Part shown: positions 29,468-46,073 of the stretch, piece after piece
How positions within the stretch are numbered: position 1 is the stretch's first letter
Layout: each line of letters begins with the position of its first letter
Virus record (IMG/VR): IMGVR_UViG_3300044640_003674
Location: 4,167 to 68,166 of that record
From: a virus
DNA length: 64,000 nt
Reading direction: 5' to 3' (one strand)
Translations under genes and position numbers: made by a program
The notes under the pieces: generated by a model
What the model saw: the letters and a program-made list of their open reading frames with translations, nothing else
Database searches by the model: none
What the model was told of the DNA's origin: nothing

Positions 29468-32400
29468 ATGCGGGCAGTCAATTTACTGGCGCCCAATATG
29501 TCCGACTTCGATTCGTCCTCGTACTTCAAGAAAAAGATTGATTCGCTGAATCTCCCGAAGGGATTTGCGATTCAAGAAGCCATGCAACGAAAGGTTGCTG
29601 ATCTTCAGGAGTATCAGGTAGCAGTTGCAGCTGGACGGGCACTTACTTCCCCTGACAGGACTGTCGGGGATATTGCTGGTGATGTGGCCATTACCGCAGC
29701 CAAGAGCGCTATTGGTTTGCCGGAATCCATTGTCGGTATTGCCGACATTCCCACCGGTGGTCGTGTCGGTAAGTTCATCGAAGAGAACACTCCGATCCAG
29801 TTCAAGAAGACCAAGGAGATCTTGGACTCTGGCTTGTCTGATGCTCAGAAGGAAGCCAACCTGCGAGTGCAGCTGGCTGAGGGTTTCGGTGGCACCATCG
29901 AAGCTGCCCTGGATAACCCGAGCGTCATCGCCACCACGGTGGGCGAATCGCTTGGTTCCATGATCGGTGGTGCCGCGGCTGCTCGAAAGATTCTTGGTGT
30001 CGGTGCCAAGGCAGTCAGTGCCGGTGCAGGAGCTACTGGCCCTGTCCTGCCTGGCGTGCTTGCCCGTAAGGTGGGTACGGACCTGGCACCTGTCATTGCA
30101 GGTGCTGTGGGTGAAGGCATCCTGGGCGCAGGTTCTGCTGCTTCCCAGATCCGAGGTGAGACTGAAGACGGTCTGCTGACCCCCAAGCAAGCCTTGTCGG
30201 CTGTGGGCTCTGGTGCTGGTACTGCTGTCCTTGGCTTCGCCGGTGGCAAGCTGGCTCAGAAGCTGGGTGTGCCTGACCTGGATACGGCCTTGGCAGCTGG
30301 CACGGTGAAGAGTCCTGCTGGTTTCCTGAAGGCAGTTGTTGGTGCAGGCATCTCTGAAGGCGTCTTCGAAGAGATGCCTCAGTCTGCCCAGGAACAGGTA
30401 TGGCAGAACTACGCACTGGACAAGCCCCTGCTGGAAGGCGTGGACAAGGCCTCTGCCATGGGTTTGCTGGCTGGTGTGGCCATGGGTAGCGGTACCGGTG
30501 TTGCAGGCGCTCTGGCGCCTTCTGATGCCGCCAAGCGCAAGCGCAACGACCGGGACGAGGACCCTGCCCGTGAAGCAGTCCTGGAGACGGCCTCCAAGAC
30601 CGGCAACGTGGATGCGTTGCTGAACATCAAGAGCAAGGACTACTCGCCGGAGAACGCTGTCCTGGCTCTGCTGGCACATGCCAAGAATCCGGAAACCAGT
30701 GGAGAGCAACGTGCCACCAACCTGAGCAAGGCCCAGGAAGTGATGGCAGGTCTTGAGCGTCAGCGTGATGCTGCTCGTAGCGAGCTCGAACTGGAGTCTC
30801 CTGAAGGTCTTGCCGCCAAGCTGGGCCAGGTACAGGAAGTCATTGCCTCTGCTCCTGAAGAAGACCGTGCCCTCTACGAAGAGATGCTGGCTGAGCTGCA
30901 GGCTCGTCAGGTCGAGATGGATACCAATCCTGATCGCACCCAGGCGATCAAGGCACTGACGGATCAGATCTCCGGCTTGGATGGTCAGATCTCCAAGGCC
31001 CGACAGTCTGTTGATCAGATTGCTGGCTTGGTGTCTGCTCCTGAGCAGGTGTCTGCCGACATGGCCCTATTGAGCCAAGCAGTGAACACCCAGGACAGCG
31101 ATGCGGTGGCTGCGCAGCAGCAAGCCGCAGAGCGGATCATCAATCTCTCGATGGCCAGTCCCGATCGTGTGGATCGTGCACAAGCGCTTGCCCTGGTGAA
31201 GACCGCGGGCAACGCCTTGACCAACCAGCAGCGTGCTTACCTGCGTGCCTTCTCGGATGCCCGAGTGGCCGACAACCTGGCCAAGGATGCTGACGTGGTG
31301 AGCAGCGACATCTGGCGTGGTTCCTCCAAGGGCGCAGAGGTCAAGTACTGGGGCATCAAGCAGTACCGCCGTGAGATCGCTGCTGCCATCGCTGCCGGTG
31401 ATCAGGCCAAGGCAACTCGTCTGCTGGCTCAGATGCAGAGCTTCAACACCGACCACAGCCAGAAGGCTCGCCTGCTGAGCAAGGTCAAGGACGGCCAACA
31501 GATCATGCGTACCGACGCTGGCTGGGTGGTCAACACCGGCAAGCGCCTCACGAACGCAGAGCGTGACGCCAATGGCGCCTTCACCAAGAACTCCGATGAA
31601 GTCGTGGGGAAGATTGGTCGTGAAGCCAGTGTCCTCCGCGCCGCCACTGCCGAGCTGGCAGCTGCAGTGACTCTCAAGTTCCCAACCACCGCAGGAGACA
31701 TCAATGTCCCGAACTCTGCGCAATCCACGAACCCGAGCACCGGCCAAAGTCGAAGCACGCAAAGTGCATCGGGCCAAGCTGCAACAAGCGAGGGTCAAAG
31801 CGAGTCTGCAGGAGCTGCTGCTCCCGTCGCCGCTGGTAATGGAGTCGATTCACAGTCGACTGGAGTTGGAGTCTCCGACTCTACTCCGGTAGCTCAGAAA
31901 GCTGAGAAGACTCAGGAGACTGCAACTGAAGTTCAGTCGACTACCACTCAAGATCCAGTTGAGGTCATTGAGGAGTCTAATCAGAATGATACAGCCATCA
32001 GTGAAGCGCCGGCAGCGCCTACTCAAGATCAGTTGGCTGAGTCTGTGGAAGATGCACCGCTGGATGAGCTGAGCGCTGAGTCTGCTGAAGCCAGTTCTAC
32101 CGAGACTCAGCCGGGTACTCTGGCTGCTGTCTTGGAGAAAGGTCCTGAAGGAGCTACGTTCTTTGACAAGCGACTGGGTGACTTCGTTGCTCAGGTGGGC
32201 AAGTCTCGTCCTCTGGTTGCAGTCAAAGACTTCATGGATGAGGTCCGTGCAGGTAAGAAGAAGATCACAGACTTCCTGCCGGATACTGAGTTGTCTGATG
32301 ATCAGAAGAATGTGATTCGTCTGCTGTCTGGCAAGCTCCGTCAGTGGTCTGATCCGATCAAGAAGAATCTGCGTCCTCGTGACAAGTTCCAGCACGAAGA

Positions 32401-35400
32401 TCCCATTCGTTTCTTGACTGGTTCCGGTGACCTGGAGCAGAACGTGAAGACAGCCATGGTTGCGGCTGCATTCACCTGGCTCAATGATGAGATCCGTCGC
32501 AAGTCGAATACGGACGAGGCGATCAACGCTCTGTTGGGTCGTGACTCGGATCACCAGGTGAGCCTGGCTGAGCGCAATCTCTTCAACGAAGGCTCGTATC
32601 AGTCCACCGTGGCTGAGGCTCTGGGCCAGCGGATCATTGCTGCCCTTGGCTTCAAGGCCTTCAAGGATGCCCCGCAAGACATCCTGCCGAAGCTGAAGAT
32701 GTCCTTGGGCTCACATGCCCTGGCCCTGTTGGAGCAGCAAGGCATGGTGGAGAGCTTCACCGTCCCTGACTCTGTGATTCGTCGGATGCGTGGTGAAGAT
32801 CTCGAGGTCGCTGAGCAGGGTGGAAAGCCAGACCTGGATCACACCTTCTACAAGCTGGTGCAGGATTCCAAGGAAGTCCTGGACATCACTGACACGATGG
32901 CTGGTACGAAGGGCATCCTGGACAAGCTGTTCGGTATTGAGTCTTCACAGATTCGTCCGAGCCTGGCACCGGTGAAGGGTGTCCAGAAGACCACAGACAC
33001 CGGCATGGGCGTGCCCAATGCCTTGCAGAAGGTGGTTCGTCAGAACCAGACCAAGAACGAGCGGCACCTGAACACAGGTCCGATGGATGTCCTGGCCAAG
33101 CTGGATGAAGAGCTGGCTCTGGCGATCGCTGGTGTGGTGCGTCCTGATGAGCACACCCATGGCGCCAAGCGCCGCAGCATCGAAGCCAAGAACGATGGAC
33201 TCGCCCGTGAGTACAAGAACTTCATGGAGTTCGTCCTCGAAGACTTGGTGCAGGGTGAAGGCAAGGACAAGGGCTTCTTCTACCGCTATGACGTGTGGAA
33301 GCAGCAGCGCGTCGGTATCAAGACCAACGTGGGCAATCCGCAGACCAGCAAGATCGCACGCTGGTTGACCTACTCCAAGGCCTGGAACACGGAGATCCGC
33401 TTCGACGATACGAATCTGATGACTGGTTTCATGCTCCGAGTGGCTGAAGGCCTGGGGGTCAAGACGGAACGTGGTGCAAGCGAGCTGTCGGTGGCCAAGG
33501 CAGAAGCTGCATTGAAGCAGCCTGAGATGGTGGCCGGTGTTGCAGCTATCCGTGCAGCACTGGATGGTGCTGACCTGAGTGCTGAACAGCAGGCCGCGGT
33601 GGTTGCTGCTGTGAAGGCGGCAGGAGAAAAGATGCACAGCCTGGCCGCTCTGGTGGCCTGGGCGCAGCACCAGGCAGCCAAGGAGGCCGGGCAAGAAGCA
33701 TTCACTACCAACCTCATGGGTGAAGTCGATGGTGTGGCCAACGGCACGATGCTGAACCATGTGCTGTACGGAGCTGGCACTGATGGTCTGCTGGAGCGTG
33801 GTGGCTTCTTCACCTTGGACAGCAAGTTCCGTCAGTTCAATCTGTGGCGCGGTACTCCAGGGAACCTGGACATCTACGAAGCCACAGCCAAGAAGATCTC
33901 TCAGTACATCGCCAGCATGAGTGACCTGGGCCAGCTGACTGGGGCAATCTGGTCGGTGATCGGCAATCCGGTGGACACGGAAGGCAATGCCACCAAGGAC
34001 GGTCGCACGCTGGTGAAGAGTGCTCTGAATCCGCTGAACTATGGTTCTGGCTTCAACAGTGTGAAGCGCAACCTGGCCGGTGAGTTCATCGAGTCGATCT
34101 ACAGCGCCTTCGAGGACTTCTCTTCGGGCAAGCGCCCGAGCGTGACCAAGCCCGAGAGCCTGAATGACTTTGTGCAGCAGCTGAATGTGCTGCTGGCCCA
34201 GACCAAGAACACTCGCCTGCTCCCGATCAATGAGCCGGCCAGCTTCTACCTGGAAGCCAATGTCCTGAGCTACAAGCAGATCGATGCACTGGAGAGCGTC
34301 TACACCGGCATCGTTGGTCAGGCTGTGGAGGATGTGGTTGGTGTTGAGTTTGGTGGCTTCATGGCTTCGACCAAGCAGCTCATCAAGACCACGCAGCTGA
34401 CCTATGACCTGTTCAATGCGGTCTACCAGGCTGAGCGTGAGAAGCTGATCGCTGACCTGGGCATTCCCACTCGCAAGAAGCGTGATGCTGAAGGTGTGCC
34501 CGTTCACGATCTGACAGCAGAGCAGGAAGGTGAGCTCCGTAGTCGTCTGGCTTCGATCATGCCGCTGATGCACACGGCTATGTCGCAGCGTGATGACAAC
34601 TACCGCAATGGCATCCTGTTGGCCAAGCGTGAGCTGCAGCGTGCACCGAACAACAGCTACGAAGTTGAGGTGACCTTCGGCCAGAAGATCAAGAATGGTC
34701 AGCACACGATGACTGTTCGCCCTCAAGTGATGGGGCAGGCTGGTCCTGGTGTGTTGGCTGTGTCTGCTGGTACTCACTCGACTGACAGTGCGATCTCTCA
34801 CGACACTCAAGATGGTCGACCAATCCTGAACATCCACGACGCATTGGGTGGTGGTGTCGGTGGTCTGGCTGAGATGACCACGGCTTTCAACAAGGCAACC
34901 TTCGAGAACCTGCTGGCCTACTCTCCCCTGCGTGCTGGACACAATGCGCTGGCTCGTGTGGTGACTGGTTTGGCCAAGATGCATTCCGATGGTCAGTTGT
35001 CTGATCAGGCCCTGGCCAACATCAAGAAGGTGCTGAAGTCTGGCAAGTCCCTGGACAAGGCACTGCAGGATTCTTTCGAGGCAGCACTGCTGGCCGATCG
35101 ATCCAAGCTGGACATCATGAGCCGGTGGGCAGTGGTCGACCAGTACCCGATGGACAACAACGGGTACCAGGTGACGGATGCTGATCGCAAGCGAGTCAAC
35201 ACCCTGGCAGCCAACCTGGCTCCTGATGTTGCTCCTCTGACCCAGGCAGCAAGCGAAGTCCTGAATCAGGCTCTTGGCTTCAAGGCGGAGAAGAAGGCAC
35301 CGGCACAGAAGCCTGCTGCCAAGCAATCGAACTGGGGCACTGTCGGTACGCCTACTGCTGCACCGAACCCGCTGCTGTTGAGCCTGCTCCAGGGTAAGGG

Positions 35401-38400
35401 CAAGGTTTCTGCCAAGTCTGTGGTCGAGACTCTGCAGGGCGTGCAGTGGCGCAATCCTGGCTACAAGCTCCTGCTGGATCTGGTTGCCAAGGCTCTGCCC
35501 GACAACCTGACGGTGCAGATGGTTGATACGAGCACTCCGGTGGATCAGGTGATCGAGATGCCCAAGATGCCTTCCAAGGCCTGGATGGTGTCTGGCTCTG
35601 GTCGGAACGAGATCTACTTCCTGGGTCCTGAGTTTGCAGCCTCTGCAATGACTCCTGAGACTCTGCTGCACGAGCTCCTGCATGGTGCGCTGGCTCGCTA
35701 CCTGGTGGATCTCAGCTCCGGCAAGGTGAAAGACCCTGACGCTCAGGCCTTGGTGGCTGAGTTGGAGAAGCTGCTGGAGCGTGCTCGCAAGCATGAGCTG
35801 GCTGACAAGTACCAGGCTGCACTGAGCAACCTGGATGAGTTCATCTCCTGGGGCATGACCAATGCTGCCTTCCAGGCAGATGTGCTGACCAAGCTGCGAG
35901 TGACTCATAAGTCGAGTCAGAACAAGTGGCTGAGCGGCATGCAGGACTTCATGCGCAACCTGACCCAGCTGATGGGCAAGGCCCTGGGCCGCAAGCTCAA
36001 CGGTGAAGCTGTCAACGGTCTTGGCCTGCTGGTTGCTAATGTGACTGGTTTGGTCAAGGCAGCGGAGCAGCAAAAGGCAGGTGACCCTGCTGAAGCAACG
36101 CTGAACCTGTCGATGGCTGCGGTGGATGACTACACCACCAGCCAGATCTTCCAGGCGCTGAATGAGCCCAGCAAGCCCCTGGAGCCTGCATTCGAGTCTC
36201 AGCTGAGCCGTATGCTGGGTGGCATCGTCAACACGCTCCATGGCCCGTTTGGTGCCTTTGCCGCGGCAGTCCGGGGCTACGCCCCTGCCTCGCCGCTGGA
36301 TGCTTGGTTGGTGGCTCAGCAGAATGGCCTGGTGCCCTTCTCCAGCGAGGTGGCTGCAAACCTGCCGGCATCACAGCAAGAGCTGTTCGTGATCGAGCAG
36401 ATCGAGGCTACGGTCAAGGCAGCGCTGCAGGACAACGCAGCTCTGACCAAGGTGGCCTACAAGGAGCTGACGGAAGTGTTCTCCGAAGCACAACAGACGC
36501 TGAAGCCTTCGGACTTCAAGGACCCTGCTCACTACGACTTCATCTTCGGTGTGAAGGCTGCGGGATCTGACGGCAAGAGCGACTATCTGGCCCGGTTCGC
36601 TGCGCTGGCGCTCGCTCACCAGGGCCTGAACAAGTTGCTGCAAGTTCCGAGCAAGAAGACCCGGAACATCAGCGACGGCAAGACGCTGGCCGACAAAGTT
36701 GAGATCGCTTTCGAGAAGATCCTTGGGTTCTTCTCTCGGATGGCTACGAAGACCTTCGACGGTCAGCGACTGGACAGCAAGGTGCAGACCTTGGTGGAGC
36801 AGCTGGTCAGTATCGAAGCCAAGCAGCGTGAAGCGATCAAGGATCAGCAGGCACGCAAGGACTTCCTGGCTCCGGTCGAGGAGATGGTCAAGACTGGTCG
36901 TGATGCGGTCATGAGCAAGCTCGAAGCCGCGGCAGGTTCTGAGTTCTTCCGCAATGCCAAGAGCGGTGCGGTGCGTGGTGGTGCTGCCCTGGTTCGGACG
37001 GTGGCAATGAACCGCCAGGAAGAGTTCCTGAAGCAGTTCCAGGACTACCGCGACAACACGCTCAATGAGCGTGGTGGTTTCCTGTCTTCCATCTTGAATG
37101 AGGTGGTGGGCCAGAAGGAATTCGCAGAGAAGGCACTCCGTGTTGTGAAGCACTTCGAGAACCGTCGAAAGGGTGTCATCGACGGTACCAGCAAGATGGC
37201 TCTGGAGTCCTTCATCAACGAAGGCAAGGACCTGACGGAAGAAGCCAAGGCAGCACTGACCCGAGTGTTCATGCGGACAGGTGCACACACCCTGATGGGT
37301 CGCTATGACTTCACCCAGCTGCAGAGCATGCTGACTGATCGTGCTGCGATCTTGAAGGAAGTGGCTGCTATCGAGGCGGCATTCCCTGCCAAGCTGCGTC
37401 GGCTGTATGTTGGCCAGGCTCAGGCCCTTGGCCTACATAAGGCTACTGGTTTGGTCGAAGGCCTGGTGATGCCCAATGCTCATGTGATCGCTCGCATGCT
37501 GGGCACTCCGTATCAGCAGCAGATCGATGCTGATCAGGCCGCGGCACATGAGGATGGCGTCAAGGCACTGATCACTCTGTATGCCCTGCTGCACACGGAC
37601 AAAGCCAGCAAGACCGAAGCAGCCCAGGTCCTGGCCAAGGAGCTCGCTCGTGATGATGGCGGCAACGGTGTGGACTTCCTGCTGAAGGCTACTCGCCAGT
37701 TCGAGCAGGATTCCCTTGAGCGCCTCTTCGCCGGTAACCCGGTGCTGATGCAGCATGGCTACACCCCGGAGATCTACAACCCGCACACCGACATCAAGGT
37801 GGTGACGGCAGAGGAAGGCCAGAAGCTGGCAGCCCAGGGCTACACGGCACACTCGAAGCTGAGCGAAGACCCTGCTGATCCGGACAGCGAGAGCAAGCAG
37901 ATCTTCGTTCGAAGCGGTGCTGCACTGGCTCGCTGGGAATCGGGTGTGATGTCGCTGACGGATGTGGGTACCAAGGGCACCACGATCCACAACGGATTCA
38001 CGAACCCCAAGCATCCGGACGGTGCACAGAATGCAAGTCGTCAGGCCGCGGTGACGCAAGCCAAGATGAACCTGCTGCGTCAGCCGTTGGGCCCGCATCG
38101 AGACATGAGCAAGACAGCCAAGAGCGGTCTGGTTCCTGTCTACAACGAGCAGGGAAAAATTGTGAACTGGCGCTATCTGATGCGTGAGCAGACCAAGGAT
38201 GTGGTGCTGCAGCGGAACAATCGTTTCGAGGATGTTCTGGGTACTTACGCTGGTTCGATCTTTGACAAGACCGGTACCCCCAAGAACAACCTGGCAGCGA
38301 TCCAGGCCTTGAAGACGCAGTACGACGCAGATGGTAGCGTTCGTCGACTGAAGGGCTACCACCTGGTGGGTCCGGATAGTCCTGATGCTGAGCTGCGGAC

Positions 38401-39580
38401 CATCTGGGGTCTGCTGCCTGAGCAAGCCAAGGCTGATGTGAAGCGTATCTGGGGTCTGGACGGTATGTGGGTTCACACCGACAGCTTGGACATCATGTTC
38501 GGCTATCGGGCAGCATCTGCTGCTGAGTTCCTGCGCAAGGACAAGGAAGCCCTCAACGGTATCCAGGCTGCGATGCGTGAGTGGTTCCACGGCATGGCAA
38601 AGACCATGGGCAAGAGCGACGAAGAGGCAAACAACCTGGCCAAGAAGTGGGGCTGGCAGTTGGCCAAGGGCGAGGAAGCCTGGAAGGAGATCGTCAAGGA
38701 GATGAAGGACATCATCGTGGTGAAGTCTGGCATCGTGATGCTGAACAACATCCGATCGAACTTCACCCAGCTGGTGCTGTCAGGTGTCCCGGTGAAAGAC
38801 ATGGTTCGTCATCACCTCGTTGGTATGCGTGGTGCCATGGCCTATGAGCGGGACTTCAATGAACTGCAGCGTCTGGAGACACTGCTGGCAGTGGACTACA
38901 CCATTGAAGGTCAGGCCAACATCGAACGACAGATTGCCAAGCTCAAAGACTCTCTCGCACGTAACCCTGTGCGTGAGTTGATCGAGGCTGGCTTGATGCC
39001 GACTATTGTTGAAGACGTTGCTGCAGATGATGACCTGTACTCGTACAAGTCTGTGCTGGCTTCGAAGGTTGCTCCGCTCACTCAGCGAGTTCCTGTGCCC
39101 TTGCGAGATGCGGCCAAGACGGTCTATATGGCACATGACACCAAGCTGTATGGTGCTCTGAACCGTGTTGCTCGACTGTCTGACTTCGTGGCTCGCTATG
39201 CCTTGTATCAACACCTGACCACGCGAGCAGTTGATCAGATGACTTCGGAACAAGCTATCCAGCGTGCTTCTGAGACATTCATCAACTACGACATTCCAAT
39301 GCACCGCGGCATGCAGTACCTGGACAGCATGGGTCTGTTCATGTTCACCAAGTACTTCCTGCGTGTGCAGCGTGTTCTGGCTCGTACATTCAAGGAGAGC
39401 CCTGGTCGAGTGTTGGGAATGATTGCCGCAGACTACTTTGCGGACGTTGGCCCCAACGTGCTGGAAGGTTCTGCAGTGAACCACTTTGGTGATAACCCAT
39501 GGAGGTGGGGTGCGTTCCAGTTCCCTGGAACTCTGGACAAGCTGGCTACTGTTGCAGTGCCTATGTCGATCATCAAATGA
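29468..39580 (+). CDS. Virion-encapsidated RNA polymerase (N4 gp50-like); start may be 29498
   Basis: 3370 aa, no Cys seen; motif A EVDGVANG, motif B RTLVKSALNPLNYG, motif C NIHDA; C-terminal region with HELLH. Confidence 0.96.
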   Translation: MRAVNLLAPNMSDFDSSSYFKKKIDSLNLPKGFAIQEAMQRKVADLQEYQVAVAAGRALTSPDRTVGDIAGDVAITAAKSAIGLPESIVGIADIPTGGRVGKFIEENTPIQFKKTKEILDSGLSDAQKEANLRVQLAEGFGGTIEAALDNPSVIATTVGESLGSMIGGAAAARKILGVGAKAVSAGAGATGPVLPGVLARKVGTDLAPVIAGAVGEGILGAGSAASQIRGETEDGLLTPKQALSAVGSGAGTAVLGFAGGKLAQKLGVPDLDTALAAGTVKSPAGFLKAVVGAGISEGVFEEMPQSAQEQVWQNYALDKPLLEGVDKASAMGLLAGVAMGSGTGVAGALAPSDAAKRKRNDRDEDPAREAVLETASKTGNVDALLNIKSKDYSPENAVLALLAHAKNPETSGEQRATNLSKAQEVMAGLERQRDAARSELELESPEGLAAKLGQVQEVIASAPEEDRALYEEMLAELQARQVEMDTNPDRTQAIKALTDQISGLDGQISKARQSVDQIAGLVSAPEQVSADMALLSQAVNTQDSDAVAAQQQAAERIINLSMASPDRVDRAQALALVKTAGNALTNQQRAYLRAFSDARVADNLAKDADVVSSDIWRGSSKGAEVKYWGIKQYRREIAAAIAAGDQAKATRLLAQMQSFNTDHSQKARLLSKVKDGQQIMRTDAGWVVNTGKRLTNAERDANGAFTKNSDEVVGKIGREASVLRAATAELAAAVTLKFPTTAGDINVPNSAQSTNPSTGQSRSTQSASGQAATSEGQSESAGAAAPVAAGNGVDSQSTGVGVSDSTPVAQKAEKTQETATEVQSTTTQDPVEVIEESNQNDTAISEAPAAPTQDQLAESVEDAPLDELSAESAEASSTETQPGTLAAVLEKGPEGATFFDKRLGDFVAQVGKSRPLVAVKDFMDEVRAGKKKITDFLPDTELSDDQKNVIRLLSGKLRQWSDPIKKNLRPRDKFQHEDPIRFLTGSGDLEQNVKTAMVAAAFTWLNDEIRRKSNTDEAINALLGRDSDHQVSLAERNLFNEGSYQSTVAEALGQRIIAALGFKAFKDAPQDILPKLKMSLGSHALALLEQQGMVESFTVPDSVIRRMRGEDLEVAEQGGKPDLDHTFYKLVQDSKEVLDITDTMAGTKGILDKLFGIESSQIRPSLAPVKGVQKTTDTGMGVPNALQKVVRQNQTKNERHLNTGPMDVLAKLDEELALAIAGVVRPDEHTHGAKRRSIEAKNDGLAREYKNFMEFVLEDLVQGEGKDKGFFYRYDVWKQQRVGIKTNVGNPQTSKIARWLTYSKAWNTEIRFDDTNLMTGFMLRVAEGLGVKTERGASELSVAKAEAALKQPEMVAGVAAIRAALDGADLSAEQQAAVVAAVKAAGEKMHSLAALVAWAQHQAAKEAGQEAFTTNLMGEVDGVANGTMLNHVLYGAGTDGLLERGGFFTLDSKFRQFNLWRGTPGNLDIYEATAKKISQYIASMSDLGQLTGAIWSVIGNPVDTEGNATKDGRTLVKSALNPLNYGSGFNSVKRNLAGEFIESIYSAFEDFSSGKRPSVTKPESLNDFVQQLNVLLAQTKNTRLLPINEPASFYLEANVLSYKQIDALESVYTGIVGQAVEDVVGVEFGGFMASTKQLIKTTQLTYDLFNAVYQAEREKLIADLGIPTRKKRDAEGVPVHDLTAEQEGELRSRLASIMPLMHTAMSQRDDNYRNGILLAKRELQRAPNNSYEVEVTFGQKIKNGQHTMTVRPQVMGQAGPGVLAVSAGTHSTDSAISHDTQDGRPILNIHDALGGGVGGLAEMTTAFNKATFENLLAYSPLRAGHNALARVVTGLAKMHSDGQLSDQALANIKKVLKSGKSLDKALQDSFEAALLADRSKLDIMSRWAVVDQYPMDNNGYQVTDADRKRVNTLAANLAPDVAPLTQAASEVLNQALGFKAEKKAPAQKPAAKQSNWGTVGTPTAAPNPLLLSLLQGKGKVSAKSVVETLQGVQWRNPGYKLLLDLVAKALPDNLTVQMVDTSTPVDQVIEMPKMPSKAWMVSGSGRNEIYFLGPEFAASAMTPETLLHELLHGALARYLVDLSSGKVKDPDAQALVAELEKLLERARKHELADKYQAALSNLDEFISWGMTNAAFQADVLTKLRVTHKSSQNKWLSGMQDFMRNLTQLMGKALGRKLNGEAVNGLGLLVANVTGLVKAAEQQKAGDPAEATLNLSMAAVDDYTTSQIFQALNEPSKPLEPAFESQLSRMLGGIVNTLHGPFGAFAAAVRGYAPASPLDAWLVAQQNGLVPFSSEVAANLPASQQELFVIEQIEATVKAALQDNAALTKVAYKELTEVFSEAQQTLKPSDFKDPAHYDFIFGVKAAGSDGKSDYLARFAALALAHQGLNKLLQVPSKKTRNISDGKTLADKVEIAFEKILGFFSRMATKTFDGQRLDSKVQTLVEQLVSIEAKQREAIKDQQARKDFLAPVEEMVKTGRDAVMSKLEAAAGSEFFRNAKSGAVRGGAALVRTVAMNRQEEFLKQFQDYRDNTLNERGGFLSSILNEVVGQKEFAEKALRVVKHFENRRKGVIDGTSKMALESFINEGKDLTEEAKAALTRVFMRTGAHTLMGRYDFTQLQSMLTDRAAILKEVAAIEAAFPAKLRRLYVGQAQALGLHKATGLVEGLVMPNAHVIARMLGTPYQQQIDADQAAAHEDGVKALITLYALLHTDKASKTEAAQVLAKELARDDGGNGVDFLLKATRQFEQDSLERLFAGNPVLMQHGYTPEIYNPHTDIKVVTAEEGQKLAAQGYTAHSKLSEDPADPDSESKQIFVRSGAALARWESGVMSLTDVGTKGTTIHNGFTNPKHPDGAQNASRQAAVTQAKMNLLRQPLGPHRDMSKTAKSGLVPVYNEQGKIVNWRYLMREQTKDVVLQRNNRFEDVLGTYAGSIFDKTGTPKNNLAAIQALKTQYDADGSVRRLKGYHLVGPDSPDAELRTIWGLLPEQAKADVKRIWGLDGMWVHTDSLDIMFGYRAASAAEFLRKDKEALNGIQAAMREWFHGMAKTMGKSDEEANNLAKKWGWQLAKGEEAWKEIVKEMKDIIVVKSGIVMLNNIRSNFTQLVLSGVPVKDMVRHHLVGMRGAMAYERDFNELQRLETLLAVDYTIEGQANIERQIAKLKDSLARNPVRELIEAGLMPTIVEDVAADDDLYSYKSVLASKVAPLTQRVPVPLRDAAKTVYMAHDTKLYGALNRVARLSDFVARYALYQHLTTRAVDQMTSEQAIQRASETFINYDIPMHRGMQYLDSMGLFMFTKYFLRVQRVLARTFKESPGRVLGMIAADYFADVGPNVLEGSAVNHFGDNPWRWGAFQFPGTLDKLATVAVPMSIIK

Positions 39581-39583
39581 GTT

Positions 39584-39676
39584 TGGGCATTGAAGGTGGG
39601 GGTCGAACCCACAAGAGGTGCTTATTTCCTCCGGCCCGCTGAAGGGCCTACGGTTACCAATTTCGTCACTTCGCCC
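39584..39676 (-). tRNA. Aberrant tRNA-Leu(CAG)-like element / pseudo-tRNA
   Basis: GGGCGAAG-UG-ACG-AAAUUGGUAAC-CGU-A-GGCCC-UUCAGC-GGGCC-long variable arm-GUGGG-UUCGACC-CCCAC-CUUC-AAU-GCCCA. D and T arms intact; 6-nt anticodon loop; bulged acceptor stem. Confidence 0.6.
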
Positions 39677-39803
39677 AGGGGAGTAGCGATCCCCCCTATC
39701 CAACCTCAGTGTGCCCACTGGGGTTGAAGTCTTGTTTGTTGCCAGCTGCCGCAGTTTCATCCCGGCTGGCGCGTGATCTCATGACCGATCAGCGGCTTTC
39801 ATT

Positions 39804-39909
39804 TGATGGTGGCCGGTACTGATCTCCGGCTTGCTCCGTCTCGCAAGGCTTATTTCATCCAGGCTCGGCAGCAGGTAATCACGCGCATCAGCCTGCGCAT
39901 TCACCATCA
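39804..39909 (-). ncRNA. C4-antisense-RNA-like structured motif
   Basis: UGAUGGUG-AAU-GCGCA-GGCUGA-UGCGC...GCCGG-AGAUCAGUA-CCGGC-CACCAUCA; loop-loop complementarity GCUGAU/AUCAGU. Family assignment is from recall, not a search. Confidence 0.6.
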
Positions 39910-40019
39910 TTGAATCACCCTCGCCACATCCCCATATCCGGGGAGCTGTCTCGAACAGGGATGGTTACCTGCCGTCTAGTGTTGCTGAGCGCTCAGCACG
40001 AAGGCGATTCGATGATGGT

Positions 40020-40460
40020 CCCAGTCTTTCCTGGGTGTCAGCACTCTCTACAGACCTTGTGGCTATGCTTGCCTACCGTCACGTCCTGTAGTCGACGCCC
40101 GAGCTTTAGACGACTCATCTCGGGAAAGCTGTGTTTATGGCAGTACGTTGCCAGCCCGTCAGCGGGATAGTTGAAGGGTTCCCAGATTCGCATGCGGCAG
40201 CGTTACAGGGAGGTTGATCTGGAGATCACTACGAGGCCAAATCCGTAGTTCTAGGTCCCCTTCGAGGGTGTGGACCAATAGGGCGCCTCATTTATTCGCC
40301 CCCATTTCACCGGCTAGCACGGATAGAGGTAAGTCACTTGGCAGCTACTTGGCACAGGCCCACCTGCTCGAATGGCCTTTGTCACTCCATGCCTGGAGCG
40401 CATTTCACTGTTGCTGGCTTGATCCACACTCTCGAAGAGCCCCGTCTTTCCGGGGTGTCA
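40020..40460 (-). repeat. Two-copy motif UGACA-CCC(A/C)G-GAAAGA-C(U/G)GGG
   Basis: Copies at 40020-40040 and 40440-40460; the only two differences are compensatory within the stem. Confidence 0.85.
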
Positions 40461-40469
40461 TGAGACTTG

Positions 40470-40661
40470 TCACCCTCTCTTGCGAGAGGATCTGTCGAAG
40501 TAGTTTCTCAGGGTGATGCCGACATAGATGACAGCAACCACCCCAGAGAAGATCAGGCCTCCGACGAAGGCCACTGCCGAGAAGGCAATGGCCACCCCTA
40601 CAACTCCTGCCACGATAGCGATACCGAGCAGGATGAAGAGGATGGTCTTGAGCCAGTGCAT
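40470..40661 (-). CDS. Small 2-TM membrane protein
   Basis: Very hydrophobic 63 aa with a basic tail. Confidence 0.65.
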   Translation of the reverse strand: MHWLKTILFILLGIAIVAGVVGVAIAFSAVAFVGGLIFSGVVAVIYVGITLRNYFDRSSRKRG

Positions 40662-40666
40662 CAAGA

Positions 40667-41011
40667 TCAGTTGAAGAGGCTTGCGACAGCCTTCGGCTGA
40701 ACTTCAGCAGCTGCTTCTTCGACCTTCGACTCAGCTGCAGCAGGAGCCTCTTCTGCTTGAGGAGCAGCTTCCGGTGCAGCCGTGGCCACCACCGTCAGGG
40801 CAGGTGCCGAAGCAACTGCCGGTGCCGCGGTGTCGTCATCGCCGAACGGGATTGCCGAGTCTTCGATGCTGATGTCCGCGGTCAGGCCACCTTCCTTGCG
40901 GCCAGCAGTGAAGGTGATCTCCACTTCCTTGCCGGCCAGGTTGATGCCCTGGGTCGTGATGTACTGCTTCAGTGCAGCTTGGATTTCGACCTGCTTGAGG
41001 TTGATTTGCAT
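40667..41011 (-). CDS. N4-like conserved hypothetical protein
   Basis: MQINLKQVEIQAALKQYI...FTAGRK, Ala/Glu-rich tail, ends SLFN. Confidence 0.8.
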   Translation of the reverse strand: MQINLKQVEIQAALKQYITTQGINLAGKEVEITFTAGRKEGGLTADISIEDSAIPFGDDDTAAPAVASAPALTVVATAAPEAAPQAEEAPAAAESKVEEAAAEVQPKAVASLFN

Positions 41012-43931: not shown

Positions 43932-46073
43932 TCAAGGCGCTCGTTTGGACAAGGCCTTGCCGACAGAGATCATGATGGTGCTCATGATCTCGACTTCATC
44001 GAGCTTGTCAGCGATCTTGTCGTTGAGCGACACGACACGCTGACGGATGCCTTCGAAGTCGAAACCAGCATCAACAAGGATCATGGCGTAGCGCATCAGC
44101 ATGTTGTTGCGATTGCCATCACCGATGTTGTTGATCACCCAGCGCTCCAGGTTGTCCATGGATTGCTGGGAATCAAGCAGCTGCTTCCGCTCTTCGTTCT
44201 TGCTGGTCTTCGGGATGAAGGGCAAGGCATCGAGCAGCATCCCGTCGTTGTACTCATGGTGACCTGGGTGGGTCATCCACTTGCGAGCACGCTGAAGGGT
44301 TGCTTTGTCGATCGGGAACGGAAGCCAGTCGGCGATGTTGCCCATGAACTCCTTGTAGTCCTTGGCGTCCATCTTCAGCTCATGACTCAGCGGCAGGATC
44401 ACACGGAAGCGGTGCTCCTCTTCCGTATGGCGCTTCGTGGTGTAGATCAAGAACTTGTAGTCCTTGAGGAGCATCTTGGCTGTGTTGATGCTCACACCGC
44501 CGTCCACGTCGAACACTGCGAGGTTGAAGCCAGGAATGGCGTTGTCCTCGTTGCGGTAGCCACCGGTGAGATGGTGGGCAACCCAGTGATGGTCGGCAAG
44601 CTGCGTCAGGCGATGCAGCTGATCGAAAGGTGCACGGACGTTCTGGTAGTCGGTGGTGATGTCAGCCGAGTAGCTGAGCACCATCTTCGACAAGTCAGTC
44701 TCCTTGAGCGTCTCACCACGCAAGAACTCGATGCCATCGCTGAAGGTCTTCTTGATGACGATGTTGTTCTTGTAGCCATAAGCCATGGCCATAGTGAGCA
44801 GCTCTTGGCGAGCACCTGCACCACCCTTGTAGAAGGGCAGATCTTCAGCCAGGTCAGCATGGGTCACATCCTGACCAACTGCAGCGATGTACTTCGCCAG
44901 CTTCACCCAGTTCTTGTCCCGTGTGAGCATCAGGGTGAAGGCCTCTCCCGAGTCTTCAGCCAGCTTGATGGCGTTGAACACATGCGCAGATGTGACTTCA
45001 GGTGCGTCGTCGATGAAGGCATAGCCTCCAGCCAACTTCAGCACCTTGAAGGCACGCTCTGCCAGCTCTCGCTTCTGGATCTCCTGGTGCTCAGGGAGCT
45101 TCTCAGCACGGTCTTCACAGTGCAGTTGATACTCATTGAGCAAGATGCAAGTTTCCTCGCTGATCACCAGCTGCTTGTTGGCATTGATGATGTCGGCCAG
45201 GTTCTCCAGTCGGTCGGCCAGCTGTTCGATGATCTTGGAGTTGGATTGACTCACACGATCGTCGTACATCTGCTTGGCTGTAGTGCGCTTGCGGTCAGCT
45301 CGACGCACATAGCCGAAGAAGCAGCGACGTGCATAGCCAGTACTGAGCATGTCCATCAGACCTTCTTCAGCACGAGCACCGTCGAACAGCTTCTGAGGCA
45401 CACCGAACATCAACAGGTTCGTCGGTGTCTTGCCCAGGATCTCTTCACTGCGAGTGTTCTCCGCAGTGTTCTTGATCAGCTTCTGTTTGATCTGGCCTTT
45501 GTCGTACAGCTCAATGAAGGTGTCGAAGACTTCCTGGTTGGCCACCAGGTTGTTGCCGACTTCATCCATGATCAGGTTGAGTGAGCCTGCATTGGCCATC
45601 AGGAGTTGATGACGCAGCTGCTTGACTGCTGGGCCGGTGCCAGAGTCGAAGCTGAACAGCGGAGGTCCGAGACGTTCGAATTCCTTGTTCAGCTTGGCGA
45701 GCTCATCGTCAGGGTCAGTGCCTTTACGAACGGCTCGCTTGTTGGCCAGCTTGGGCAGGTTCTGCTCAGCCAGCAACGGGAAGGTTTCATCGATGAAGCG
45801 GTTGCGGAACTGCTGGAGGATTTCGCCTTCCAGGACGTTCATCGATTGCGTCTTGCCGTAGCCAGACGGTGCCAGGTTCAGCACGTACATATTGACCGGC
45901 ACCTCACCCTTGTCAGGGGTAGCGATGGTGCACCGCATCTGTGCTGCTGCCAGGCAGAAGTAGTAGCCGGTCAGCAGGCGGAAGAACAGCGCGTCCTCGC
46001 GCTGGCTCTTCGCCTGCAAGATCCCCACGACCTGTTCGGACATGGGGTGGTAGGTCATCTCAGAGAAGTTCAT
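43932..46073 (-). CDS. N4 gp43-like DNA primase (Dns)
   Basis: APSGYGKT P-loop, IMDEVG, FDVDGG, YTTKRH, FRVILP, GNRNNML (PriCT-like). Confidence 0.88.
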   Translation of the reverse strand: MNFSEMTYHPMSEQVVGILQAKSQREDALFFRLLTGYYFCLAAAQMRCTIATPDKGEVPVNMYVLNLAPSGYGKTQSMNVLEGEILQQFRNRFIDETFPLLAEQNLPKLANKRAVRKGTDPDDELAKLNKEFERLGPPLFSFDSGTGPAVKQLRHQLLMANAGSLNLIMDEVGNNLVANQEVFDTFIELYDKGQIKQKLIKNTAENTRSEEILGKTPTNLLMFGVPQKLFDGARAEEGLMDMLSTGYARRCFFGYVRRADRKRTTAKQMYDDRVSQSNSKIIEQLADRLENLADIINANKQLVISEETCILLNEYQLHCEDRAEKLPEHQEIQKRELAERAFKVLKLAGGYAFIDDAPEVTSAHVFNAIKLAEDSGEAFTLMLTRDKNWVKLAKYIAAVGQDVTHADLAEDLPFYKGGAGARQELLTMAMAYGYKNNIVIKKTFSDGIEFLRGETLKETDLSKMVLSYSADITTDYQNVRAPFDQLHRLTQLADHHWVAHHLTGGYRNEDNAIPGFNLAVFDVDGGVSINTAKMLLKDYKFLIYTTKRHTEEEHRFRVILPLSHELKMDAKDYKEFMGNIADWLPFPIDKATLQRARKWMTHPGHHEYNDGMLLDALPFIPKTSKNEERKQLLDSQQSMDNLERWVINNIGDGNRNNMLMRYAMILVDAGFDFEGIRQRVVSLNDKIADKLDEVEIMSTIMISVGKALSKRAP

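What the first reader, a model, noticed from the sequence alone, without database searches (positions are those of the whole stretch)
39584..40460. Candidate undescribed ~880-nt ornate phage ncRNA (or multi-RNA precursor) at the vRNAP / middle-operon junction
Seen: the longest non-coding gap in a tightly packed genome is almost wholly base-paired when read on the minus strand. It has two ~20-bp stems (40419-40437 with 40260-40278; 39999-40019 with 39903-39923), a run of more than ten short hairpins, a three-way C4-like domain and a tRNA-like 3' end. There are long-range complements GCUGCCGCA/UGCGGCAGC (40193-40201 with 39745-39753) and CGGCAGGUAA/UUACCUGCUG (39965-39974 with 39869-39878). Short motifs recur: GUGAAAUG (40303, 40401), GAAAUAAGC (39620, 39848) and GCUGGCAAC (39738, 40147). 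Most stem imperfections are G-U on the minus strand. Known: large tRNA-associated phage ncRNAs such as GOLLD and ROOL exist, but I do not recognise this as either. Inference: one large functional RNA, or a cassette processed into several RNAs, possibly acting as decoy, scaffold or anti-defence factor.
Basis: partly seen in the sequence, partly recalled or inferred. Interest (0 to 1): 0.88.

Follow-up and report, generated by a model that had tools for sequence, protein, structure and literature searches.

The report
Phage cassette of tRNA-like RNAs
The long gap beside this phage's giant RNA polymerase gene most likely holds a string of smaller folded RNAs rather than one giant RNA, among them a tRNA-shaped RNA that is common in phages yet missing from the RNA catalogue searched.

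Summary
The gap 39584-40460 is real. It lies between the convergent vRNAP gene and the replication operon of an N4-like phage, and no ORF in it has support. It is not one ornate RNA. On the minus strand it is a cassette of separately conserved modules:

- Two copies of a 21-nt hairpin (UGACAC + 5-bp stem + GARAGA loop), each followed at once by a ~20-bp duplex.
- One tRNA-shaped RNA, "family C" (39915-39798). It has a 7-bp acceptor-like stem, D-like and T-like hairpins joined by a covarying loop-loop pairing, and a hypervariable centre.
- A degenerate tRNA-like element (39676-39585).

Family C also occurs in 132 isolate phage records and 560 of 5426 E. coli genomes. In HK620 and one E. coli prophage it sits in the tRNA slot between Q and the holin gene. 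Rfam 15 has no match.

G-U versus A-C counts (50 vs 12) put the duplexes in RNA of this strand.

A 214-nt stretch folds no better than shuffles, and the claimed long-range complements are at chance level.

Processing by RNase P and RNase III and a tRNA-mimic role are inferred. No RNA data were found.

The parts
40440..40460 (-). Leader hairpin copy 1 (P0-A): UGACAC + CCCCG/CGGGG stem + GAAAGA loop. It starts 9 nt after the stop codon of the 64-aa membrane-protein gene.
   Evidence: Exact pattern match. There are 2 copies in the window against 0.03 expected. The same 21-nt pattern was fully paired in 128 of 128 instances from the IMG/VR scan, with 20 stem variants across all 136 viral instances including the N4 relatives and the window.
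40257..40439 (-). Domain A: long duplex (arms 40437-40419 and 40278-40260) that begins right after the hairpin and encloses about 140 nt. The insert holds two 'GUGAAAUG + GC-rich hairpin' units that resemble the 5' start of family C.
   Evidence: Inverted repeat I3, 19 nt, 89%. z = -3.4. Motif positions. Outside near-identical metagenome contigs no homolog was found. Model R1 does not recognise a family C copy here.
40041..40256 (-). Spacer between A and B. It shows no excess folding and no relatives. It contains an unsupported 51-aa ORF (40193-40038) whose stop codon is the UGA of hairpin copy 2.
   Evidence: z = +0.5/+0.4. No Pfam or PHROG match. No homolog among proteins of 28-90 aa.
40020..40040 (-). 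Leader hairpin copy 2 (P0-B): UGACAC + CCCAG/CUGGG stem + GAAAGA loop.
   Evidence: (D1).
39903..40019 (-). Domain B: leader-trailer duplex X1:Y (arms 40019-39999 and 39923-39903; 18 Watson-Crick, 2 G-U, 1 A-C) enclosing 75 nt with three small hairpins. One of them has a T-loop-like UUCGAGA.
   Evidence: I2; z = -6.2. The same layout (hairpin, then a duplex starting at +0 or +1) is seen in 34 of 216 motif instances at >=15 of 16 pairs, where the shuffle maximum was 14. In the N4-like relatives it occurs in L002, L003, L005, L006 and L007.
39798..39915 (-). Family C, a tRNA-shaped RNA. Acceptor-like stem 39908-39902 with 39811-39805. Linker AAU. H1 (D-like) 39898-39883. Variable centre 39882-39831. 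H3 (T-like) 39830-39812. H1 loop GCUGA pairs with H3 loop UCAGU. The 5' acceptor strand is the 3' end of B's trailer Y.
   Evidence: Model R1: 87.4 bits, E = 6e-21, the only copy in the window. Pair counts. Compensatory loop-loop variants in L192, L164/L241, L191 and L062. The piece 39803-39832 and a piece starting at 39882 (to 39905, 39906 or 39921) are shared with other metagenome contigs at other spacings.
39677..39797 (-). Spacer between C and the tRNA-like element, with several hairpins. On the + strand 39701-39726 is a terminator-like hairpin that could end vRNAP-gene transcripts.
   Evidence: z = -2.1. Terminator-like site. Blocks 39699-39736 and 39760-39800 recur in contigs of one other run.
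39585..39676 (-). Degenerate tRNA-like element (TLS). It has an acceptor stem with a conserved AAU bulge, a true T-loop (UUCGACC), a long variable arm and a 6-nt 'anticodon' loop. No CCA is encoded.
   Evidence: One homolog in relative L002 (74% identity over 98 nt). The T-stem changed on both sides (GUGGG/CCCAC to GCAGG/CCUGC), the loop sequence differs (UUCAGC vs GUAGUG) and the bulge is the same. Two pattern scans of IMG/VR found no other carrier.

Best explanation
The gap is a minus-strand stable-RNA cassette at the tail of the replication operon, not a single RNA. It occupies the kind of slot where other phages keep tRNA genes.

It is built from reusable modules:
1. A 21-nt leader hairpin (UGACAC, 5-bp stem, GARAGA loop). 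In many phages it sits a fixed 4-10 nt before a tRNA or directly on a long helix.
2. Leader-trailer duplexes of about 20 bp (A and B) that enclose tRNA-like inserts, much like rRNA processing stalks.
3. Family C, a tRNA-shaped RNA in which only the parts that give a tRNA its outline are conserved: a 7-bp acceptor stem, an adjoining 5-bp T-like arm, a D-like arm and a base-paired 'elbow'. The middle is free to vary.
4. A degenerate type-II-like tRNA mimic.

Most likely mechanism (inferred, not shown): the cassette is read through from the replication operon. The duplexes are cut by RNase III, and the acceptor-like stems by RNase P and the 3' trimming enzymes. This frees Y to pair with X2 and yields several stable small tRNA mimics. 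Their role would be either to punctuate and protect the ends of flanking transcripts, or to act as tRNA decoys or scaffolds.
For: SHOWN
- Leader hairpin. It was fully paired in 128 of 128 instances from the IMG/VR scan, where chance pairing would be about 21%. There are 20 stem variants across all 136 viral instances. A tRNA starts 4-10 nt after it in 12 of 136 viral and 12 of 95 genomic instances. All tRNAs in the viral flanks, and all but one in the genomic flanks, are on its strand.
- Long duplex after the hairpin. 34 of 216 instances reach >=15 of 16 pairs; shuffles never exceed 14. With strand-neutral selection, 43 non-redundant stems hold 50 G-U against 12 A-C, p = 1e-6.
- Family C, 50 sequences. 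Pairs 8-132, 9-131 and 10-130 changed on both sides in 18, 25 and 13 sequences while staying paired in 45, 49 and 50 of 50. Pairing stops after 7 bp (the next pair forms in 29 of 50). Covariation score is 0.186 against 0.075 for shuffles (0 of 500 reach it), and all slid controls are <=0.091. The loop-loop pairing shows 8 G-C to G-U changes, and compensatory variants exist in divergent members.
- Family C tail. A at the discriminator place in 32 of 50; CCA next in 8 of 50, against 1.9 expected.
- Family C distribution. At least 120 IMG/VR contigs, 132 isolate phage records and 560 of 5426 E. coli genomes.
- Family C position. In HK620 and one E. coli prophage it lies between Q/pR'/qut and the holin gene, where phage L and Sf6 carry tRNAs (PMC8022706, passages read). 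In KlebP_265 it lies 345 nt upstream of three tRNAs on the same strand. 12 of 12 tRNAs near family C are co-oriented.
- Modularity. In relative L002 the order is C, hairpin, B, TLS. L003 has two hairpin-plus-duplex units. L004, L008 and L009 have only a plain terminator at this junction.
- Precedent. LUZ7, another N4-like phage, makes abundant RNAs shorter than 250 nt from the orf69-orf70 spacer near the end of the same operon (PMC9163698, section 3.2.4 read; synteny).

INFERRED: cleavage by RNase P and RNase III, read-through transcription, and any function.
Against: - No RNA evidence at all. No RNA run holding the stretch was listed.
- Folding z-scores do not separate strands or beat all coding controls.
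- Family C members were collected with sequence patterns for H1 and H3. Those two helices are therefore nearly invariant by ascertainment, and their covariation rests on a few divergent members.
- Domain A and the TLS have almost no relatives. Their function rests on analogy.
- Y can pair with X1 or with X2, and both covary. Which fold exists in the cell is unknown.
- The hairpin also occurs before ORFs, before terminators, in rRNA spacers of CPR bacteria and inside tmRNAs of Acidimicrobiia. No single role explains all of these.
- ARAGORN finds true tRNAs near only 10 of 95 family C copies.
Confidence: 0.55

Rival explanations
1. One large ornate RNA of about 880 nt, of the GOLLD/ROOL kind, that works as a single folded particle.
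For: The gap has no supported ORF. It is structured over about three quarters of its length. It is tRNA-associated, as GOLLD and ROOL are said to be (that association is recalled, not tested).
Against: - No Rfam hit even at E <= 10.
- The modules occur alone, in other orders and in other phage families.
- The 214-nt middle part folds like shuffled sequence and has no relatives.
- The claimed long-range pairings are at chance level and not conserved.
Confidence: 0.06
2. The conserved features act on DNA or on transcription rather than as stable RNAs. The hairpin would be a hairpin promoter for an N4-type polymerase (or another start or stop signal). The long inverted repeats would be terminators or cruciforms that separate the convergent operons.
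For: - LUZ7 early and middle promoters are GC-rich hairpins with the start 13-15 nt from the hairpin centre (PMC9163698, passages read). A tRNA 5' end 6-7 nt after this hairpin gives the same geometry.
- A start at that place would remove the part of X1 that competes with X2.
- LUZ7 sRNA1 and sRNA2 have their own start site (same paper).
- Relatives L004, L008 and L009 have a plain bidirectional terminator at this junction.
- Copy 2 also scores 9 of 12 as a sigma-70-like site.
Against: - The loop is 6 nt, not 3-4.
- There are only 2 copies in this genome, both in the gap, and none before early or middle genes. Five other, larger virus records carry one copy each.
- The motif also lies inside rRNA operons and tmRNAs of bacteria.
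- There is no G preference at +6 to +8; the six bases after the hairpin are G-poor.
- A sigma-70 start would fall inside the tRNA.
- G-U excess of 50 to 12 shows the long stems are selected as RNA of one strand.
- There is no U-run after the minus-strand hairpins.
Confidence: 0.13
3. A decaying tRNA-gene island: remnants of former tRNA genes and their flanks with no present function.
For: - The TLS has a 6-nt anticodon loop, a bulged acceptor stem and only one known relative.
- The inserts of A and B have only partial tRNA features.
- The A-to-B spacer looks like random sequence.
- The phage has no canonical tRNA.
Against: - Family C keeps a 7-bp stem through 13-25 double changes per pair. Its loop-loop pairing is kept by compensatory changes across phages of Enterobacteria and Betaproteobacteria.
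- The hairpin is paired in 128 of 128 instances.
- The TLS changed both sides of its T-stem while keeping its bulge.
- Decay would not preserve these features.
Confidence: 0.1
4. The gap hides one or more small protein genes, for example the 51-aa ORF 40193-40038 with a Cys/His-rich tail.
For: An ATG-started 51-aa frame fills the otherwise unstructured A-to-B spacer. Its stop codon is the UGA of hairpin copy 2.
Against: No Shine-Dalgarno-like sequence is seen before it (read). No Pfam or PHROG match at E <= 0.1. No homolog among proteins of 28-90 aa (longer and shorter classes were not searched). No relative carries it.
Confidence: 0.04

Closest known systems
tRNA genes and tRNA-like processing signals (plant-mitochondrial 't-elements'; tRNA slots in phage late operons)
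   Same: Family C has a 7-bp acceptor stem next to a 5-bp T-like arm, a D-like arm, an elbow contact, a purine at the discriminator place and often CC(A). It sits among or in place of tRNA genes and on their strand.
   Different: It has no anticodon arm. The T-loop lacks the UUCRA consensus, and the elbow is a Watson-Crick loop-loop helix. The centre varies from 7 to 167 nt. Neither ARAGORN nor Rfam's tRNA model finds it. I saw the t-element paper (PMC1920247) only in a search listing; the analogy is recalled.
Bacterial Y RNAs (YrlA)
   Same: Both are tRNA-mimicking non-coding RNAs with T- and D-like arms plus a long stem, and both are found in phages as well (PMC4201824, passages read).
   Different: YrlA lies within 4 kb of a Ro60/TROVE gene on the same strand, and its arms are permuted (T before D). 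This genome has no TROVE domain, and family C has the tRNA order. The GNCGAAN0-1G motif was not seen on reading the sequence.
LUZ7 intergenic sRNA hotspot (orf69-orf70)
   Same: It lies in the same neighbourhood of an N4-like genome, near the end of the exonuclease-primase-Sak4-SSB operon and just before the convergent vRNAP gene. It yields several small non-coding RNAs, one apparently made by processing (PMC9163698, section 3.2.4). The spacer also holds ~20-bp stems.
   Different: There is no sequence or model homology: no hairpin motif, no family C (best R1 match 11.8 bits), no tRNA. Three small ORFs separate it from the vRNAP gene. Strand and coordinates of the LUZ7 RNAs are in a figure and supplements that I could not see.
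rRNA-operon processing stalks (RNase III substrates)
   Same: Duplexes A and B pair a leader with a trailer around a structured insert. In two CPR or Spiroplasmataceae-labelled MAG rRNA operons the same 21-nt hairpin sits directly 5' of the strand that pairs with the 16S leader.
   Different: The inserts are 75-140 nt, not a 1.5-kb rRNA. RNase III cleavage is not shown. The trailer doubles as the acceptor strand of the next RNA.
GOLLD and ROOL large phage RNAs
   Same: They are phage-borne, tRNA-associated and non-coding (recalled).
   Different: No Rfam match. Here the unit of conservation is 20-150 nt, not 500-800 nt.

Membership tests
tRNA (Rfam tRNA clan; ARAGORN) | Scores above the family's gathering threshold or is called as a tRNA with a 7-nt anticodon loop | tested here: not met
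   TLS: 18.8 bits against 47 for tRNA-Sec; ARAGORN calls 'tRNA-???' with a 2-nt anticodon. Family C: no tRNA-clan hit at E <= 10 and no ARAGORN call.
tRNA (shape only) | 7-bp acceptor stem directly followed by the T-arm, with a contact between the D and T loops | tested here: met
   Family C: exactly 7 covarying pairs, a 5-bp H3 abutting the 3' strand, and a covarying H1-H3 loop pairing.
GOLLD / ROOL | Match to the Rfam covariance model | tested here: not met
   No hit at gathering score in the window or at E <= 10 in 39400-40700.
C4 antisense RNA (P1/P7 type) | Match to the Rfam model | tested here: not met
   The only hits at E <= 10 were tRNA-Sec and a chance CPEB3 match. That Rfam holds a C4 family is recalled.
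YrlA / bacterial Y RNA | Ro60 (TROVE) gene nearby on the same strand | tested here: not met
   No TROVE match in the 68-kb genome; the controls found it in 2 of 14 named genomes.
tmRNA (one-piece or permuted) | Call by ARAGORN or an Rfam tmRNA model | tested here: not met
   None in the window. By contrast locus L019 carries a permuted beta-type tmRNA about 320 nt after its hairpin.
N4-type hairpin promoter | GC-rich stem with a 3-4-nt loop, present before early or middle genes | tested here: not met
   The loop is 6 nt. There are two copies only, both in the gap. Criteria taken from PMC9163698 passages.
N4-type hairpin promoter | Start site 13-15 nt from the hairpin centre | tested here: inconclusive
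   tRNA 5' ends lie at that distance in 24 instances, but no start site has been mapped.
Intrinsic terminator | GC-rich hairpin followed by a U-run | tested here: not met
   No terminator-like site on the minus strand of 39300-40800; two on the + strand.
Retron / DGR non-coding RNA | Reverse transcriptase gene in the element | tested here: not met
   No RVT_1 match in the genome.
   87.4 bits, E = 6e-21, model positions 1-121. The window copy was one of the 50 training rows, so the match holds partly by construction. Independent support: its 3' piece and H1 piece match other contigs.

The most novel reading that the evidence does not exclude
Two unrecognised RNA classes are at work.

1. Family C would be a natural 'tRNA chassis'. 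Phages of at least Gamma- and Betaproteobacteria keep only the outline that RNase P, the CCA-adding enzyme and other tRNA-binding proteins read. They load a fast-changing central cargo into it; in one case the cargo is a whole tRNA (L310). The purpose would be a decoy against tRNA-targeting defences or a carrier for regulatory RNA.

2. The UGACAC/GARAGA hairpin would be a universal boundary signal for stable-RNA maturation. It is shared by phages and by rRNA operons of CPR bacteria, and may be read by a conserved host factor or fold into a small self-contained motif.
Probability: 0.2. Interest if true: 0.85.

Novelty: new variant of a known kind. Interest (0 to 1): 0.68.

Why it matters
tRNA mimics are a known theme. 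A tRNA-shaped RNA that is present in about a tenth of complete E. coli genomes, in classic phages such as HK620 and in N4-like phages, yet has no Rfam family and no annotation, would be a sizeable blind spot.

- Phage tRNAs are reported to counter defences that cut or modify tRNAs (recalled, not checked here). A conserved chassis with a hypervariable centre is a plausible player in that contest.
- It is directly testable in E. coli phages.
- The 21-nt hairpin gives a sequence handle for finding stable-RNA cassettes in metagenomes.
- The hairpin links phage RNA islands to rRNA-operon architecture in CPR bacteria.

For this window specifically, the result replaces 'one giant ornate RNA' with a parts list that can be probed piece by piece.

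Tried and rejected
- Rfam. Gathering search on the window. E <= 10 on the gap. Gathering on 55 loci. E <= 10 on the HK620 late leader. No family covers the hairpin, the duplexes or family C.
- BLAST of the whole gap against isolate phages: one 100-nt hit only, which is family C in KlebP_265.
- RNA evidence: no RNA holder was listed for the stretch. Contigs of four DNA runs were laid on it. They gave conserved pieces but no usable variation, and parts without cover say nothing.
- Shared neighbouring protein for the hairpin: clustering ORFs within 5 kb of the hairpin loci gave no universal family. The largest cluster covers 16 loci of one phage lineage.
- Sigma-70 promoter reading of the hairpin: rejected, because the -10 region is poorly conserved and a start would fall inside the tRNAs.
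- Self-cleaving ribozymes, the lambda boxB/nut site, CsrA sites, a K-turn, a mimic of the 23S A2058 region (GGAAAGAC is shared; listing) and a CRISPR repeat were considered from memory. None has support from a call.
- Y RNA, retron or DGR and tmRNA: rejected.
- A second family C copy after domain A was suspected on reading the sequence. Model R1 does not find it.
- TLS relatives: pattern scans found only the L002 contig and one chance coding match.
- Literature: six searches found no description of these elements. Pas sRNAs lie next to holin genes in lambdoid prophages (bioRxiv 10.64898/2026.05.13.724894, passages read). I could not compare sequences, so identity with family C is neither shown nor excluded.
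- Supplementary tables of PMC9163698 (LUZ7 start and stop sites) and of the Pas preprint were not available and may bear on this.
Full report
SETTING

The window is 64 kb of a 68-kb IMG/VR virus record. The + strand ORF 29468-39580 (3370 aa) is a virion RNA polymerase (phrog_2206, 1774 bits). The minus-strand genes from 50348 down to 40470 are the N4-type replication module: thymidylate synthase, ribonucleotide reductase, exonuclease, primase, Sak4, SSB, a RuvC-like resolvase, a 114-aa protein and a 64-aa hydrophobic protein. The finding is therefore the spacer between two convergent transcription units. It is the longest stretch without a sizeable ORF that I see in the ORF map. Its small ORFs have no Pfam or PHROG match. 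The only ATG-started one of note (51 aa, 40193-40038) has no homolog among proteins of 28-90 aa.

CHECK OF THE OBSERVATION

A tRNA-like element ends the gap. It is not a normal tRNA: ARAGORN reports a 2-nt anticodon, and Rfam's best match is tRNA-Sec at 18.8 bits, well under its threshold of 47.

The statement that the gap is almost wholly base-paired does not hold as a departure from chance. The whole gap folds better than shuffles on both strands (z = -4.7 minus, -3.3 plus). Split into parts, the excess comes from the two long inverted repeats (A -3.4, B -6.2). The 214 nt between them score +0.5, and one coding control reached -4.65. The 9-10-nt long-range complements are what chance gives: 2 perfect 9-mers seen, 1.5 expected. 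One of them fails a conservation test in 50 relatives.

THE REPEATED HAIRPIN

Both long stems are preceded, with no spacer, by the same 21-nt element: UGACAC, a 5-bp stem and a GAAAGA loop.

- In relatives. Eight N4-like relatives were found through the vRNAP C-terminus (40-52% identity). Five carry the element downstream of the same small membrane-protein gene, again followed by a long stem. L003 has two units and L005 has a second, variant unit. The other three relatives have a plain intrinsic terminator at that place.
- In IMG/VR. All 128 instances from that scan have a fully paired stem, where about a fifth would by chance. Across all 136 viral instances, including the N4 relatives and the window, there are 20 stem variants and two loops, GAAAGA (93) and GAGAGA (43).
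- Extent of conservation. It is confined to the 21 nt plus a G-poor ACYWUY just after it.
- Copy number. One per genome in five other, larger virus records, two in this genome.
- What follows it. A tRNA starts 4-10 nt after it (mode 7) in 12 of 136 viral and 12 of 95 genomic instances. All tRNAs in the viral flanks, and all but one in the genomic flanks, lie on its strand. Elsewhere it is followed by a long stem, by an ORF start or by a terminator.
- In bacterial contigs. The pattern is near its chance frequency (my estimate is about 140 for the whole collection; the scan stopped at 120 rows). Yet 95 of 122 instances are fully paired.
- Other contexts. Four rRNA operons (MAGs labelled Spiroplasmataceae or Patescibacteria/Zambryskibacteria) have the hairpin about 130 nt after the 16S gene. 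In the two that I folded (L131, L207) it sits directly 5' of the strand that pairs with the 16S leader. Several Acidimicrobiia tmRNAs contain it internally, some with an imperfect stem. Two instances lie in type I-E CRISPR spacers.

THE LONG STEMS ARE RNA OF THE MINUS STRAND

Of 216 distinct hairpin instances, 34 are followed within one base by 15 or 16 of 16 pairs; shuffled flanks never exceed 14. I then chose stems by Watson-Crick pairs only, so that neither strand was favoured. In that set, 43 non-redundant stems hold 50 G-U and 12 A-C oppositions (p = 1e-6). DNA cruciforms or two-strand symmetry would give equal numbers. The hairpin's fixed orientation towards tRNAs says the same.

FAMILY C

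Downstream of stem B, several relatives share GGUGAAUGCGCAGGCUGAUGCGC and, 50-100 nt later, GCCGGAGAUCAGCACCGGCCACC followed by the complement of the bases before GGUG.

- Distribution. BLAST found the enterobacterial variant in 132 isolate phage records and 560 of 5426 complete E. coli genomes, unannotated in all ten E. coli rows listed and in most of the 30 phage rows listed.
- Pair counts. In an alignment of 50 diverse members (A1) the closing stem is exactly 7 bp. Three of its pairs changed on both sides in 13-25 sequences and stayed paired in 45-50 of 50. The next pair outward forms in only 29 of 50. The observed covariation score exceeds all 500 shuffles and all slid controls.
- Caveat. 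The two hairpins are nearly invariant here because I collected members by their sequence.
- Loop-loop pairing. Members found with the model show the H1 and H3 loops pairing through compensatory variants: GCUGAU/AUCAGC, GCCGAU/AUCGGC, GGUGAU/AUCACC, UGAUGA/UCAUCA and GCCAA/UUGGC.
- The 3' tail. The base after the stem is A in 32 of 50, and CCA follows in 8 of 50 against 1.9 expected.
- Overall shape. A 7-bp acceptor stem, a 3-nt linker (AAU in 44 of 50), a D-like arm, a centre of 7-167 nt with no conservation, a 5-bp T-like arm abutting the acceptor strand, and a base-paired elbow.
- In the window. The copy (39915-39798) scores 87.4 bits and is the only one.
- In Rfam. No family matches it, in the window or in HK620.

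WHERE FAMILY C LIVES

- In HK620 it lies between pR'/qut and the annotated late terminator, ahead of the holin gene. In an E. coli prophage it lies between the Q gene and the holin gene. That is the slot where phage L and Sf6 carry tRNA genes (PMC8022706, passages read).
- In Klebsiella phage KlebP_265 it is 345 nt upstream of tRNA-Ser, -Arg and -Met on their strand.
- In phage SBP it sits alone in a 560-nt spacer, antisense to the tail genes.
- ARAGORN tRNAs lie within 400 nt upstream or 300 nt downstream of 10 of 95 copies, and all 12 are co-oriented. One tRNA-Pro lies inside the variable centre of a copy (L310).

HOW THE MODULES ARE JOINED

The 5' acceptor strand of family C is the 3' end of trailer Y of duplex B. 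Y therefore pairs either with leader X1 (16-21 bp) or, over its last 7-9 nt, with X2. Both partners covary with it: AUGAUGGUG with ACCAUCAU and CACCAUCA; UUGUUGGUG with CCAACAA and CACCAACAA; UUGAGAGUG with CACUCUC.

Of 104 family C copies with enough upstream sequence, 63 have such an X1 within 300 nt. Of those 63, 41 have a hairpin abutting X1: 18 of the UGAC/GARAGA type, 6 with a CGUAA-type loop, 16 of other kinds and 1 terminator-like. Some B inserts end in a good T-arm right before Y (L075, L124, L097). B thus looks like a tRNA-like insert whose acceptor stem is lengthened by leader-trailer pairing.

Domain A has the same outline. Its insert carries two 'GUGAAAUG + hairpin' units like the start of family C, but it has no relatives and no R1 match.

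THE TLS

It has one relative (L002). The acceptor stem and its AAU bulge are identical, the T-stem changed on both sides, the variable-arm loop is similar (AAAUAAGCA vs AGAUAAACG), and the 6-nt loop differs. It is not a decoding tRNA.

INTERPRETATION

What is shown is a parts list and a strand. What I infer is the following.

- The cassette is co-transcribed with, or just after, the replication operon.
- It is matured by the host enzymes that recognise exactly the features under selection: RNase III for ~20-bp duplexes, and RNase P and the 3' trimming enzymes for a 7-bp acceptor stem, a T-arm and an elbow.
- The G-poor six bases after the hairpin fit a tRNA leader that must not pair with CCA (the RNase P rule is recalled).
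- Conservation of outline without an anticodon domain is what one expects of a processing signal or a protein-binding tRNA mimic, not of a decoder.
- I cannot tell whether the products punctuate and stabilise neighbouring transcripts, act as decoys for tRNA-directed defences, or carry the variable centre as cargo.
- The hairpin's own role is the weakest point. A boundary or insulator element for stable-RNA maturation is my best guess. A hairpin promoter of the LUZ7 kind is the main rival (PMC9163698, passages), weakened by the loop size, the copy number and its presence in bacterial rRNA operons.

PRECEDENT AND NOVELTY

LUZ7 produces several small non-coding RNAs late in infection from the orf69-orf70 spacer (PMC9163698, section 3.2.4). 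By its annotation this spacer lies after the same exonuclease-primase-Sak4-SSB genes and three small ORFs before the convergent vRNAP gene. That spacer has long stems but none of the elements described here.

An RNA hotspot at this junction is therefore not new. The specific families are new as far as Rfam 15 and six full-text searches show. Pas sRNAs next to holin genes in lambdoid prophages (bioRxiv 10.64898/2026.05.13.724894, passages) could overlap family C, and I could not compare sequences.

I rate the finding as a new variant of a known kind (tRNA-like RNAs). It is of good interest because of its breadth and testability, with function unproven.

Noticed in passing
L230 and L242 (bacterial contigs): The 21-nt hairpin lies at the end of a spacer that directly abuts a type I-E-like CRISPR repeat. 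Hosts have therefore taken spacers from this conserved phage element.
   Followed up: no
L019:941-1273 (-): A 58-kb viral contig encodes a permuted, beta-type tmRNA (133 and 122 bits) and a tRNA about 320 nt downstream of its hairpin-plus-long-stem unit.
   Followed up: partly
L131, L207, L162, L225 (rRNA operons of MAGs labelled Spiroplasmataceae or Patescibacteria/Zambryskibacteria): The same hairpin sits about 130 nt after the 16S gene in all four. In the two that I folded (L131, L207) it is immediately 5' of the strand complementary to the 16S leader, that is, at the foot of the processing stem.
   Followed up: partly
L146, L183, L193, L208, L249 and others (Acidimicrobiia): tmRNA genes contain the hairpin internally, often preceded by a second GGAAAGAC a few bases upstream. 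This may be convergence or a shared small structural motif.
   Followed up: no
L310 (viral contig), variable centre of its family C copy: ARAGORN calls a tRNA-Pro nested inside the 167-nt variable centre of a family C RNA.
   Followed up: no
window 40038-40193 (-): A 51-aa ATG-started ORF with a Cys/His-rich C-terminus fills the unstructured spacer. Its stop codon is the UGA of hairpin copy 2. No homolog or family was found.
   Followed up: yes
window 39701-39726 (+): An 11-bp terminator-like hairpin with a U-rich tail lies 120 nt after the vRNAP stop codon. It is a likely end of late transcripts, which would then run antisense through the tRNA-like element.
   Followed up: no
window 44000-44240 (primase gene): This coding control folds far better than its shuffles on the minus strand (z = -4.65). 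It is a reminder that z-scores alone mislead here, or it may hide a structure inside the gene.
   Followed up: no
G000 (whole record): IMG/VR classes this N4-like genome as a 'provirus' (93% complete). That is unexpected for a phage type known as strictly lytic (recalled). The 4.2 kb outside the window were not examined.
   Followed up: no
L084 and L229: Two degenerate tandem copies of the hairpin unit about 44 nt apart (caagacc-UGACNN-hairpin), which suggests the unit can multiply locally.
   Followed up: no
window 39620-39632 and 39848-39860: A 13-nt repeat (GGAGGAAAUAAGC / GGAUGAAAUAAGC on the minus strand) lies in the TLS variable-arm loop and in the variable centre of family C. L002's TLS has a similar loop. 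The pair alone is near chance (about 0.2 expected by my estimate).
   Followed up: partly
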